Source: Escherichia coli (GTDB taxonomy: Bacteria > Pseudomonadota > Gammaproteobacteria > Enterobacterales > Enterobacteriaceae). Taken from it: 64,000 bases of DNA. Each line of letters begins with the position of its first letter. Position 1 is the first letter of the stretch. The stretch lies in assembly GCF_003334335.1 (NCBI RefSeq), contig NZ_QOWQ01000002.1. One strand, given 5' to 3'. The notes beneath the pieces are model-generated. The model searched no databases. It saw only the letters and a program-made list of their open reading frames with translations, and was not told where the DNA came from. The translations under genes and the position numbers were made by a program. Shown here piece after piece: positions 34,786 through 43,558 of the stretch.

Positions 34786-34803
34786 CTGTGAGTGATTTCA
34801 CAG
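34786..34803. promoter_or_regulatory. CRP binding site in mglBAC promoter
   Basis: ctgtgagtgatttcacag: near-perfect TGTGA-N6-TCACA palindrome. Confidence 0.7.
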
Positions 34804-38901: not shown

Positions 38902-40137
38902 TTACAACGTTACCGGGTGTTCTTTCTCGCCTTTCTTAAACTTCACTTCCCCGAGCTCAATACAACCCACCGGGCAGACGTGACCACAAAGCAGACAACC
39001 CACACATTTCTCGGTATTACAATGCGGTGTGCGGGTTTTCTCGCTCCATTCCATCGCCTGGTGACCGCCGTCGTAACAGGAAATATAACAGCGTCCACAG
39101 CCAACACATTTATCAAGATTGATACGGGGATAGACAATATAACTGCGGTCTAAATCTTCCGCCGGGACAATATTGTTATTCGCCAGACCTACCATCTCCT
39201 GCAGCGAATCAAATCCCTGATCGGCGAGATAATGCGACAACCCGCTTGCCATATCTTCCACTATCCGATACCCGTACTGCATGATGCCGGTGGTCACCTG
39301 TAACGTTGCTGCGCCGAGCAATAAAAACTCAGCCGCATCCTCCCAGGTTTCAATGCCGCCGATACCGCTGATTGGGAAATCGCGCAGTTCTGGATGGGTG
39401 CGCATTTGCTGAATGAAGCGCAGGGCGATCGGTTTTACCGCTTTACCGGAATATCCGGAAATACTCGATTTTCCGTTAACGATCGGCATACCGATTTTCT
39501 GATTAAGATCGATATTGGTGATGGATTTAACGGTGTTAATCGCCGCAATGCCATCTGCGCCGCCGCGCTTCGCCGCCAGCGCCACTTCGCACATATCACC
39601 GATATTCGGCGTCATCTTCGCCAGCATTGGCAGCGTGGAACCCCGTTTCACTGCCCGACAATATTTTTCTACCAGCTCCGGGCTTTGCCCGACATCGCTA
39701 CCCATCGCATGAGAAGTCATTTGCGGACAGGAGAAGTTACACTCGATCATATCCGCGCCAGCTTCTTGCACCAGGCGCGCCAGCTCCTCCCATTGCTGCT
39801 CATTTTCCCCCATGATCGAAGCGATCAATACTTTGTCCGGGTAATCTTCCTTCAGCCGACGCAGGGCGGCCAGATTCTCTTCCAACGGATGTTCAGCAAT
39901 CTGCTCCATATTTTTGAAGCCGATAAAACCGGTATCTTCTTTCACCAGATGATCAAAACGCGGCGAGACTTCGTTGGCGATAAAAAAGCCGATCGTTTTA
40001 AACACCACACCGCCCCAACCTGTGTCGTAGGCTTTGGCACACATCTCATAGCAGTTGCCTACCGGCGAAGAAGAGAGGCAGAACGGGTTGGGAAACTTCA
40101 CGCCGCAAAAAGTAATCGAAAGATCTTTCGTTAACAT
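38902..40137 (-). CDS. preA: NAD-dependent dihydropyrimidine dehydrogenase subunit PreA (YeiA)
   Basis: ~411 aa; DHOD-like domain plus C-terminal 2x[4Fe-4S] ferredoxin motifs (CxxCxxCxxxCP). Confidence 0.92.
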
Positions 40138-41369
40138 GAGCAAGCTCCCTCTAAATAGTGATGAATCGCCTCGGCGGCTTCTTTCCCGGTTTTCACGGCA
40201 TAGACCACGGTTTTGTCACCCTCAACAATATCGCCAGCAGCAAAGACTTGCGGGTCGCGGGTCTGGTAATTTTGTGTTTTGATGGTGTTACGCTGCGGCT
40301 CTAACTCCGCAAAGGCATCTAGTCTGGCATGCTGACCGACGGCGAGAATAATTTTATCTGCCGCCATCGTCAGTTCGCCCGATAACCGTACATGCTTAAA
40401 CGTGACTTTATTGCCTTCCACGGCTACTGGCGTGAATCCATCGATGATCGAAACGCCCAGCTCCCGGGCGCTGGTAAACTCTTTTTCGCTTGCCGGAAAC
40501 TCATCTAACTCTTCACGCGCTACGCAAGTTACCGCCTGACAGCCGAGAACTTTCAGCGTGCTGGCTACGTCCATCGCGACATCACCGCCGCCGATAATTA
40601 ATGCGCTTTGTGGAATGCTGATATCGCCTTGCGCCTGTCGTGCACGTTGCAAGAAGTCGACGGCAATCTCAACGTCACTATGCTCAAACAGCGGTAGCCC
40701 GGAACCGCTTGATAACCCCACGGTGACCAGTACCGCGCGGTTTTCTGCTTTCAGCTGCTCAAGGGTGAGTGTGTTACCGACTTCGTTGTTGCACTTAATG
40801 GTCACGCCCATTTTTTCAATACGGGCGATCTCTGCATCCAGCACTGATTGCGGTAACCGGAATTGCGGAATACCGTTACGCAACCAGCCACCGGGGTGCG
40901 CTTCTTTCTCATAAATCGTGACGTCATAACCCTGGTTTGTCAGTGTCACACTGGCCTGCAATCCGGCAGGACCTGCGCCAATAATCGCGACTTTGCCGAG
41001 CGTTTTAGTACCGGGCTGATAAATTTCCATTCCGGTTTGTTGTTCAAAATCAGTAACAAAACGCTGTAAGCGGCCGATATCAATGGGAGCATCAACACCG
41101 GCACGGGTACAACCGCTTTGGCATAATTTCTCCGTCGGGCACACTCTGGCACAAACGGCACCGAGGGCATTATTTTCGCGAATTGTCTCGGCAGCGCCTT
41201 TAAAATTACGAAAGTAGATTGAGCGAATAAATTTCCCCGGATCGGTCTGTGCCGGGCAAGCCTGACTACAGGGAGCGTCGTGACATAATAAACAGCGAGA
41301 GGCTTCTTTAATCGCCAGTAAAGACGTAAAAGCCGGAGTGAGTTCATCCAGATAATTTTGTTGCGGCAT
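40131..41369 (-). CDS. preT: Dihydropyrimidine dehydrogenase subunit PreT (YeiT)
   Basis: 412 aa; FAD/NAD Rossmann GAGPAG; overlaps preA start. Confidence 0.92.
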
Positions 41370-41562
41370 GTGATCTTCCTTAATGCTATAGGTAATTAAG
41401 GCGAGCGTTTAGTAAATAATAATGTACTGATATTAAGGCTAAGCGTGCGGGGGAATTTAAACTGTGAAAAGATTCACAAATAGCTGCGGTTAGGAATGTG
41501 ATATCCGCAGCTTATCAGGTGAAGTAATAATTATTCTCAATAATTAACTGGAGAGGGGAATA

Positions 41563-43558
<1,996 letters not shown>

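What the first reader, a model, noticed from the sequence alone, without database searches (positions are those of the whole stretch)
41463..41514. CRP-like site and palindrome upstream of the preTA operon
tgtgaaaagattcaca (41463-41478) is a near-consensus TGTGA-N6-TCACA CRP site about 100 bp upstream of the preT start (minus strand). It is followed by the inverted repeat agctgcgg...ccgcagct (41483-41514), which could terminate yeiS or act as an operator. This suggests catabolite control of pyrimidine degradation.
Basis: inference. Interest (0 to 1): 0.25.

Follow-up and report, generated by a model that had tools for sequence, protein, structure and literature searches.

The report
Known CRP site of preTA promoter

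Summary
The window is E. coli K-12 DNA. TGTGAAAAGATTCACA sits exactly at 41463-41478, its centre 101.5 bp upstream of the preT ATG. It is a perfect CRP core: two occur in the window against 0.07 expected, and the other is the known mglB site.

It is already known. A RegulonDB list reproduced by Shimada et al. 2011 gives it as a CRP activator site for yeiTA (= preTA) at -57.5. Their genomic SELEX-chip found a cAMP-CRP peak on the same 16-mer.

Both half-sites are perfect in 24 of 25 other preT loci examined (Escherichia, Citrobacter, Pseudocitrobacter, Kluyvera and others) and in both E. coli haplotypes.

A hexamer TAGCCT lies exactly 21 nt downstream of TCACA in 28 of 29 loci. The class II mglB promoter has the same spacing. 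I therefore infer a class II promoter starting near 41428, which disagrees with the listed -57.5. No accessible start-site data settle this.

The inverted repeat is real (41482-41489 / 41505-41512). It has no U-tract. A stable hairpin occurs at this position only in genomes that have yeiS. Published bicyclomycin data place a Rho-dependent termination region at 41462. It is probably a 3' hairpin of the yeiS mRNA, not an intrinsic terminator or operator.

Already known; low interest.

The parts
41463..41478 (-). cAMP-CRP binding site. It reads TGTGAATCTTTTCACA on the preT strand and is palindromic. Centre 41470.5 = NC_000913.3 2233931.5.
   Evidence: Perfect core. SELEX-chip peak and RegulonDB activator entry. 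Both half-sites are perfect in 24 of 25 other preT loci from other strains and species and in both E. coli haplotypes, which together cover 5425 of 5426 genomes.
41436..41441 (-). Inferred -10 hexamer TAGCCT of the preT promoter. It occupies -13..-8 if transcription starts at 41428.
   Evidence: TAGCCT lies exactly 21 nt after TCACA in 28 of 29 loci (24 of 25 distinct sequences), while the 21-nt spacer itself diverges. The known class II mglB promoter in this window has the same TCACA-N21-TATGAT geometry. This is an inference; no transcription start site (TSS) data were accessible.
41428..41429 (-). Inferred TSS (A at 41428 = NC_000913.3 2233974). It puts CRP at -42.5, or -41.5 if the start is 41429.
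   Evidence: A Y-A-G motif 6 nt after TAGCCT is kept in most species. Inference only.
41413..41413 (-). TSS implied by the RegulonDB position of -57.5 (NC_000913.3 2233989).
   Evidence: Computed from the RegulonDB row and the coordinates. The hexamer that would serve it (TACATT) is not conserved even among E. coli alleles, where it reads CACGCA.
41482..41512 (-). Inverted repeat / RNA hairpin AGCUGCGG-N15-CCGCAGCU in the yeiS 3' untranslated region.
   Evidence: It folds at about -13.5 kcal/mol. Within Escherichia there is one compensatory C-G to U-A change (E. albertii) and one A-U to G-U change. A hairpin of -12.6 to -15.2 kcal/mol is present in all 19 yeiS-bearing loci (K-12 plus 18 others). 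The Citrobacter hairpin is not homologous in sequence to the Escherichia one. Hairpins are weaker in all six yeiS-less loci, at -3.1 to -11.0 kcal/mol.
41462..41462 (-). Top-scoring coordinate of a published Rho-dependent termination region (NC_000913.3 2233940, + strand of the genome).
   Evidence: Adams et al. 2021, Supplementary file 2. Reads upstream/downstream were 133/24 untreated and 758/787 with bicyclomycin. Rho score 5.75, p = 7e-19. The scores use 800-nt windows, so this marks a region, not a mapped 3' end.
41526..41544 (.). AT-rich Fur-box-like palindrome, 13 of 19 matches to GATAATGATAATCATTATC.
   Evidence: A related block is present in Citrobacter. Beauchene et al. 2015 report an anaerobic Fur ChIP peak on the preT promoter and Fur-dependent activation. 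Assigning the peak to this box is my inference.
41378..41401 (-). Conserved 5'-UTR element CCTTAAT-N10-ATTAAGG overlapping the Shine-Dalgarno sequence of preT.
   Evidence: I4. Conserved across the loci that carry the CRP site, with minor variants in two. The predicted hairpin is weak: -4.8 kcal/mol, z = 0.7.
41414..41415 (-). Insertion point of a 125-bp ERIC/IRU-type repeat that is present in other E. coli strains and absent from this window.
   Evidence: Alignment. The promoter-repeat junction is present in 2189 of 5426 complete genomes. The element has a median of 5 copies per genome.
38902..41369 (-). The regulated operon: preT (41369..40131) and preA (40143..38902).
   Evidence: ORFs and RefSeq annotation.
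41563..41802 (-). yeiS, the upstream gene on the same strand. Its transcripts run into the spacer.

Best explanation
This is the already catalogued cAMP-CRP activator site of the preTA (yeiTA) promoter. When glucose is absent and cAMP is high, a CRP dimer binds TGTGAATCTTTTCACA. It recruits RNA polymerase to a promoter that has no usable -35 element, and transcription of the dihydropyrimidine dehydrogenase operon begins. Shown: the site is a perfect core, it binds cAMP-CRP in vitro (published SELEX), a RegulonDB list gives it as an activator site, and it is conserved across genera. Inferred, at about 0.6 confidence: the promoter is class II. CRP would be centred at -41.5/-42.5, the -10 hexamer would be TAGCCT (41441..41436) and the start would be near 41428, rather than the -57.5 arrangement in the RegulonDB list. 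The inverted repeat just upstream is not part of this switch. It is most likely a structured 3' end of the sanA-yeiS mRNA. Read-through from yeiS is stopped in this spacer by Rho, so preTA depends on its own CRP-dependent promoter. That last step is also inferred.
For: - **Core and chance:** perfect core at 41463-41478, two in the window against 0.07 expected, the other being the mglB site.
- **Literature:** yeiT is listed as a known CRP target recovered by genomic SELEX. A SELEX-chip peak lies on this 16-mer, and the RegulonDB row reads 'yeiTA activator -57.5'.
- **Conservation:** both half-sites are perfect in 19 of 19 Escherichia/Citrobacter/Pseudocitrobacter loci. They are also perfect in 5 of 6 further loci (E. 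lignolyticus, Kluyvera, C. amalonaticus, a multispecies Enterobacteriaceae protein, an Aeromonas-labelled contig), even where the upstream gene differs.
- **E. coli population:** the two haplotypes together cover 5425 of 5426 genomes and both keep the site.
- **Class II geometry:** TAGCCT lies exactly 21 nt after TCACA in 28 of 29 loci while the spacer diverges. The class II mglB promoter has the same N21 spacing to TATGAT. The consensus scan finds no sigma-70 promoter on this strand, as expected for an activator-dependent promoter.
- **Single site:** there is only one CRP-like site and there are no CytR half-sites in the spacer.
- **Hairpin and Rho:**
Against: - The only published position I could read (RegulonDB) puts the site at -57.5, not -41.5. 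That implies a start at 41413.
- No TSS in the spacer appears in the one data set that returned entries for this region (Kim 2012). The supplements held for two Cappable-seq papers contain nothing for it.
- I could not read a primary report of crp- or cya-dependent preTA expression. Zheng et al. 2004 is not held.
- TAGCCT is a weak -10 hexamer (3 of 6 matches), and its conservation could reflect another factor's site.
- One Salmonella contig has preTA without any CRP site, so the control is not universal.
Confidence: 0.85

Rival explanations
1. The site works from -57.5, as the RegulonDB list states. CRP would sit one to two turns upstream of RNA polymerase and activate in a class I-like manner a promoter whose -10 is TACATT (41426..41421) and whose start is 41413.
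For: RegulonDB row 'yeiTA activator -57.5'. yeiT appears in Table S3 of Mendoza-Vargas et al. 2009, a genome-wide TSS-mapping study, though I could not confirm what that table lists or recover a coordinate. K-12 has TACATT and TATTAT hexamers in the right area.
Against: -57.5 is out of phase with the usual class I positions (-61.5, -72.5; established knowledge). The TACATT hexamer reads CACGCA in the majority E. coli haplotype and is absent in Citrobacter and others, while the CRP site and TAGCCT are kept. In 40% of E. coli genomes a 125-bp repeat sits at -2/-1 of that start.
Confidence: 0.3
2. The inverted repeat 41482-41512 is a Rho-independent terminator that ends yeiS transcription.
For: It forms a stable stem, about -13.5 kcal/mol, 43 nt after the yeiS stop codon. 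A stable hairpin is present in every genome that has yeiS. There is one compensatory change and one wobble change on the sense strand.
Against: There is no U-tract; the stem is followed by AUUUGUGAAUC. The loop is 15 nt, and the terminator scan did not call it. The drop in read-through across this spacer is abolished by bicyclomycin, so it depends on Rho. The held Term-seq files show no 3' end here, though they may be truncated.
Confidence: 0.12
3. The inverted repeat is an operator for an unidentified dimeric regulator that modulates preTA together with CRP.
For: It is a palindrome 3 bp from the CRP site, and its arms are invariant in E. coli while the loop varies.
Against: The half-sites are 23 bp apart centre to centre, which is unusual for an operator. 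E. albertii changes both arms in a pair-preserving way, and strain E69 makes a change tolerated only as G-U on the sense strand; both fit RNA pairing better than protein recognition. The repeat is absent from yeiS-less species that keep the CRP site, TAGCCT and the 5'-UTR element. Citrobacter has a hairpin of unrelated sequence at the same place.
Confidence: 0.06
4. The CRP-like sequence is a chance match or a non-functional binding site.
For: CRP binds many sites without transcriptional consequences (general knowledge). I read no primary in vivo expression data.
Against: Expected 0.07 per window. Perfect in 24 of 25 other loci across several genera, with fixed spacing to a conserved hexamer. 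Listed as an activator site.
Confidence: 0.03

Closest known systems
RegulonDB entry: CRP, yeiTA (preTA), activator, site TGTGAATCTTTTCACA (as reproduced in Shimada et al. 2011, PLoS One 6:e20081)
   Same: It is the same 16 bp at the same genomic place (U00096.2 about 2,231,95x; NC_000913.3 2233924-2233939), with the same target operon and the same direction of effect.
   Different: The listed position is -57.5. Comparative analysis here points to -41.5/-42.5. The flanks printed in that row (aaacgcagctatt / gtttaaattcaaa) differ from the genome (aaccgcagctatt / gtttaaattcccc).
mglBAC promoter, a class II CRP-dependent promoter in the same window (site 34787-34802, RegulonDB -41.5)
   Same: Perfect TGTGA-N6-TCACA core and exactly 21 nt from TCACA to the -10 hexamer.
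   Different: The mglB -10 hexamer is TATGAT, much closer to consensus than TAGCCT. mglB is also under GalS/GalR control.
cdd promoter, a CRP/CytR-regulated pyrimidine-salvage promoter two genes upstream
   Same: Pyrimidine-nucleoside metabolism under cAMP-CRP, with one CRP site at -42.5 (RegulonDB rows).
   Different: cdd has tandem CRP sites (rows at -42.5 and -92.5 are visible) and, from established knowledge, CytR binding between them. The preT spacer has a single CRP site and no TGCAA/TTGCA CytR half-sites.
Rho-dependent terminators whose mRNA 3' ends are set by a protective stem-loop (described by Dar and Sorek 2018, NAR; cited from my own knowledge of that paper)
   Same: A stable hairpin without a U-tract downstream of a stop codon, in a spacer where termination is sensitive to bicyclomycin.
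   Different: No mapped 3' end at this hairpin was available to me. The top-scoring Rho coordinate lies 20 nt further on, just past the CRP palindrome.

Membership tests
cAMP-CRP binding site of the E. coli CRP regulon | Two-fold symmetric core TGTGA-N6-TCACA | tested here: met
   0 mismatches at 41463-41478, with 0.07 such sites expected per window.
cAMP-CRP binding site of the E. coli CRP regulon | Bound by cAMP-CRP | tested here: met
   Checked in the literature, not by experiment. A genomic SELEX-chip peak lies between yeiS and yeiTA on this 16-mer (Shimada 2011 supplement). I found no in vivo ChIP entry; the held Latif 2018 supplement does not list Crp peaks.
cAMP-CRP binding site of the E. 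coli CRP regulon | Target gene expression depends on crp/cAMP | not testable with these tools
   The RegulonDB row says 'activator'. The likely primary source, Zheng et al. 2004, is not held. Full-text searches for preT/yeiT together with CRP found nothing further.
cAMP-CRP binding site of the E. coli CRP regulon | Conserved in orthologous promoters | tested here: met
   Perfect half-sites in 24 of 25 other preT loci. Only one Salmonella contig, which has a different upstream gene, lacks the site.
Class II CRP-dependent promoter | CRP centred at about -41.5, overlapping the -35 region relative to a mapped start | tested here: inconclusive
   No start in the spacer was found in accessible TSS tables. 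The RegulonDB list gives -57.5. Comparative geometry gives -41.5/-42.5.
Class II CRP-dependent promoter | A -10 hexamer at a fixed distance of about 21 nt after TCACA, and no good -35 | tested here: met
   TAGCCT at N21 in 28 of 29 loci. The spacing matches mglB. The scan finds no sigma-70 consensus promoter on this strand. The -35 position reads AGTTTA.
Class II CRP-dependent promoter | Activation requires CRP activating region 2 | not testable with these tools
   Needs in vitro transcription or reporter assays with CRP AR2 mutants.
Intrinsic (Rho-independent) terminator, considered for the inverted repeat | G+C-rich stem with a short loop | tested here: inconclusive
   8-bp stem with 5 G-C pairs, about -13.5 kcal/mol, but a 15-nt loop.
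Intrinsic (Rho-independent) terminator, considered for the inverted repeat | A U-tract immediately 3' of the stem | tested here: not met
   The stem is followed by AUUUGUGAAUC. The terminator scan did not call it.
Intrinsic (Rho-independent) terminator, considered for the inverted repeat | Termination independent of Rho | tested here: not met
   Literature check: bicyclomycin abolishes the drop in reads across this spacer (Rho score 5.75, p = 7e-19).

The most novel reading that the evidence does not exclude
The catalogued promoter geometry (-57.5) may be wrong, and preTA may instead be driven by a conserved class II CRP promoter (TGTGA-N6-TCACA-N21-TAGCCT, start near 41428). That promoter would be embedded in a Rho-dependent termination zone, so the CRP palindrome and the neighbouring hairpin would also form the structured 3' end of the yeiS mRNA. 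In addition, a 125-bp ERIC-type repeat lies at about +14 of that transcript in 40% of E. coli genomes. It could make preTA expression differ between strains, and with it bacterial inactivation of 5-fluorouracil.
Probability: 0.3. Interest if true: 0.35.

Novelty: already known. Interest (0 to 1): 0.1.

Why it matters
PreTA is the bacterial dihydropyrimidine dehydrogenase that inactivates the anticancer drug 5-fluorouracil in the gut (bioRxiv 10.1101/820084). How its expression is controlled therefore has some practical interest. CRP control itself is already recorded, so the finding adds nothing new. Two things here go beyond the catalogue entry. The comparative evidence suggests the promoter start and CRP position may be mis-assigned. 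A repeat-element polymorphism lies in the leader in about 40% of strains. Both are small, testable refinements.

Tried and rejected
- **Transcription start data.** Kim 2012 tables show starts only inside sanA and yeiS (U00096.2 2231595 and 2231827) and none in the spacer. The Cappable-seq and SMRT-Cappable-seq supplements that are held contain nothing for this region. Thomason 2015 and Zheng 2004 are not held. Mendoza-Vargas 2009 lists yeiT in its Table S3, but no start coordinate could be retrieved from the held files.
- **Latif 2018 ChIP-exo.** Its table only keys a sigma-70 peak to the yeiS end coordinate, which is not informative.
- **Wasted look-up.** One PMC id I guessed was an unrelated paper.
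- **preTA drug-metabolism preprints.** They mention no promoter or CRP.
- **Rfam.** No family matches 41200-41900 on either strand at E <= 1.
- **Consensus promoter and terminator scan.** Nothing on the preT strand.
- **Other regulators.** There are no CytR half-sites. The best FNR-like match has 3 mismatches. There is no second CRP site.
- **Divergent promoter on the opposite strand.** Rejected by reading the sequence: the hexamer at N21 in that direction is GATATC.
- **SD-sequestering hairpin as a strong structure.** Rejected, because its energy is no better than shuffles.
- **Covariation in the inverted repeat.** Too thin to be statistically convincing: one compensatory pair, and 87 of 500 shuffles did as well.

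Full report
**What is there.** The window is E. coli K-12-type DNA. The 351 bp around the finding are 100% identical to MG1655 and related strains, and the flanking genes are annotated yeiS and preT. On the minus strand the order is cdd, sanA, yeiS (41802..41563), a 193-bp spacer, preT (41369..40131) and preA. The 16-mer tgtgaaaagattcaca lies at exactly 41463-41478. Its centre is 101.5 bp upstream of the preT ATG. Window position x corresponds to NC_000913.3 position 2234033 + (41369 - x). The site is therefore 2233924-2233939.

**Is it more than chance?** A perfect TGTGA-N6-TCACA occurs twice in the window, against 0.07 expected from dinucleotide-preserving shuffles. The other copy, at 34787-34802, is the well-known mglB site and serves as an internal positive control. 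The perfect 8-bp arms are at 41482-41489 and 41505-41512. An 8-bp repeat of this kind is not remarkable alone: 4% of shuffles of the spacer have one, and the window holds 60.

**It is already known.** Shimada et al. 2011 (PMC3105977) list yeiT, the old name of preT, among the known CRP targets that their genomic SELEX also recovered. Their supplement gives a SELEX-chip peak between yeiS and yeiTA with the sequence TGTGAAAAGATTCACA at about 2.23195 Mb. It also reproduces the RegulonDB row 'yeiTA, activator, -57.5, TGTGAATCTTTTCACA'. I could not read a primary report of crp-dependent expression. Zheng et al. 2004, which I recall as a likely source, is not held.

**Conservation.**
- A scan of one genome per species with PreT returned 19 Escherichia, Citrobacter and Pseudocitrobacter loci. 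All 19 have both half-sites perfect.
- Six more distant PreT loci were fetched through the protein database.
- Five of these six also have a perfect core about 100-118 bp from the ATG: [Enterobacter] lignolyticus, a multispecies Enterobacteriaceae protein, C. amalonaticus, Kluyvera, and a contig labelled Aeromonas finlandensis.
- The upstream gene is not always the same in these loci: a divergent deaminase gene in C. amalonaticus and a sulfatase gene in the Aeromonas-labelled contig.
- Only one Salmonella contig lacks the site. There preTA follows an autotransporter gene.
- Within E. coli the spacer exists as two haplotypes that are about 87% identical to each other. The K-12 type is in 1465 genomes and the O157 type in 3960.
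- Both haplotypes keep the half-sites, the repeat arms and the hexamer described next.

**Promoter geometry (inference).**
- When all loci are anchored on the CRP site, the hexamer TAGCCT lies exactly 21 nt after TCACA in 28 of 29 loci (24 of 25 distinct sequences). The one exception has a 1-nt deletion.
- The 21 nt between the site and the hexamer diverge freely, apart from being C-rich.
- Six nt after the hexamer, most species have Y-A-G.
- The class II mglB promoter in this window, listed at -41.5 in the RegulonDB rows, has the same TCACA-N21-TATGAT layout.
- If TAGCCT (41441..41436) is the -10 hexamer, transcription starts at about 41428/41429 and CRP sits at -42.5/-41.5. That is the textbook class II arrangement.
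- The -35 position then reads AGTTTA, which is poor. This fits the consensus scan finding no sigma-70 promoter on this strand.
- The model conflicts with the listed -57.5, which implies a start at 41413.
- The hexamer that would serve that start, TACATT, reads CACGCA in the majority E. coli haplotype and is absent from other genera.
- I could not resolve the conflict. The one data set that returned entries for this region shows starts only inside sanA and yeiS, and the held Cappable-seq supplements contain nothing for it.
- I put about 0.6 on class II and about 0.3 on the listed geometry. Both promoters could coexist in K-12.

**The inverted repeat.**
- On the sense strand it folds as an 8-bp stem with a 15-nt loop, about -13.5 kcal/mol.
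- It is followed by AUUUGUGAAUC and not by a U-tract. The terminator scan does not call it.
- Within Escherichia the loop varies while the arms change only in pair-preserving ways. E. albertii has a C-G to U-A change, and strain E69 has an A-U to G-U change that works only on the sense strand.
- That is suggestive of RNA pairing, but it is only one compensatory event.
- All 19 loci that have yeiS (K-12 plus 18 others) have a hairpin of -12.6 to -15.2 kcal/mol in the 55 nt before the CRP site. The Citrobacter hairpin is unrelated in sequence to the Escherichia one.
- The six yeiS-less loci that keep the CRP site all have weaker structures: four at -3.1 to -5.0, and two at -9.3 and -11.0 kcal/mol.
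- These loci represent only two yeiS-bearing clades, so this is not strong statistics. It does tie the hairpin to yeiS rather than to preT control.
- Adams et al. 2021 (PMC7815308, Supplementary file 2) report a Rho termination region whose best coordinate is 2233940, which is window 41462, the base after the CRP palindrome. Reads upstream/downstream were 133/24 untreated and 758/787 with bicyclomycin. The Rho score was 5.75 and p = 7e-19.
- Those scores use 800-nt windows, so the coordinate marks a region, not an exact 3' end.
- My reading is that sanA-yeiS transcripts are terminated in this spacer by Rho, and the hairpin is probably the structured 3' end of the yeiS mRNA. The CRP palindrome can itself fold as a 6-7-bp hairpin in RNA and may contribute to that 3' end.
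- An intrinsic terminator and an operator are both less likely.

**Other regulators in the spacer.**
- Beauchene et al. 2015 (PMC4676285) found Fur bound to the preT promoter under anaerobiosis and Fur-dependent activation of preTA.
- The best Fur-box match, 13 of 19, is the AT-rich palindrome at 41526-41544, upstream of the hairpin. Linking the two is my inference.
- There are no CytR half-sites and no second CRP site. In this respect preT differs from the neighbouring cdd promoter.
- Rfam finds nothing in 41200-41900.

**Verdict.** Novelty is 'already known' and interest is low (0.1). The points that go beyond the catalogue are:
- the possible mis-assignment of the promoter start and CRP position;
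- the link between the hairpin and yeiS;
- the Rho-dependent insulation of preTA from yeiS read-through;
- the common ERIC-type insertion in the preT leader.

Noticed in passing
window 41414/41415 (insertion point); L003 and L004, within the yeiS-preT spacer (locus positions 286-603): A 125-bp ERIC/IRU-type repeat containing ...CCCCAGGAGCTTACATAAGTAAGTGACTGGGGTGAGCG... is inserted between the promoter and the preT ribosome-binding site in 2189 of 5426 complete E. coli genomes. The element has a median of 5 near-identical copies per genome. Longer, shorter or diverged versions sit at the same point in Escherichia sp. MOD1, E. albertii and strain E69. It would lie at about +14 of the inferred transcript and could alter preTA mRNA stability or translation between strains.
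   Followed up: partly
window 41370-41562: The yeiS-preT spacer exists as two deep haplotypes in E. coli. The K-12 type is in 1465 genomes and the O157 type in 3960. They are only about 87% identical, far more divergent than is usual within the species. The K-12 type resembles the alleles of Escherichia sp. E1V33 and E. whittamii, which hints at old recombination.
   Followed up: partly
window 41378-41401 (minus strand): The 5'-UTR element GCCTTAAT-N8-10-ATTAAGG(A/G), which overlaps the preT Shine-Dalgarno sequence, is conserved across the loci with the CRP site, including the most distant ones, with small variants in Pseudocitrobacter and C. amalonaticus. The rest of the leader varies. The hairpin it can form is weak: -4.8 kcal/mol, no better than shuffles. 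The reason for its conservation is unexplained.
   Followed up: partly
window 41526-41544: An AT-rich palindrome (AATAATTATTCTCAATAAT) matches the Fur box at 13 of 19 positions. It is a candidate for the anaerobic Fur ChIP peak reported at the preT promoter.
   Followed up: partly
window 41445-41458 (minus strand, between the CRP site and TAGCCT): A C-rich run (TTCCCCCGCAC in K-12; CCCCCCCC, CCCCTCCCC or CCCCCC in other genera) is kept in composition, though not in sequence, in most species. It coincides with the published Rho termination coordinate, so it could serve as a Rho loading (rut-like) segment or as a promoter spacer feature.
   Followed up: no
L027 (Salmonella enterica contig AAHLSA010000035.1), 1000-1512: Here preTA follows an autotransporter gene, and there is no CRP site with one mismatch or fewer within 500 bp upstream. 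CRP control seems to have been lost or replaced in this lineage.
   Followed up: no
L005 (E. coli EP91B), 1650-2365: An IS1 element has inserted after the first 94 nt of the spacer and removed the preT 5' end. preT is annotated as a pseudogene in this strain.
   Followed up: no
Shimada 2011 supplement file 5 (RegulonDB row for yeiTA): The flanks printed around the site (aaacgcagctatt...gtttaaattcaaa) differ from the genome sequence (aaccgcagctatt...gtttaaattcccc). This suggests the entry was transcribed from a figure or an oligonucleotide rather than from the genome.
   Followed up: no
NC_000913.2 2233032, inside yeiT (about window 40392): A sigma-28 genomic SELEX peak is reported inside the yeiT coding region in PMC5493296. 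Its significance is unknown.
   Followed up: no
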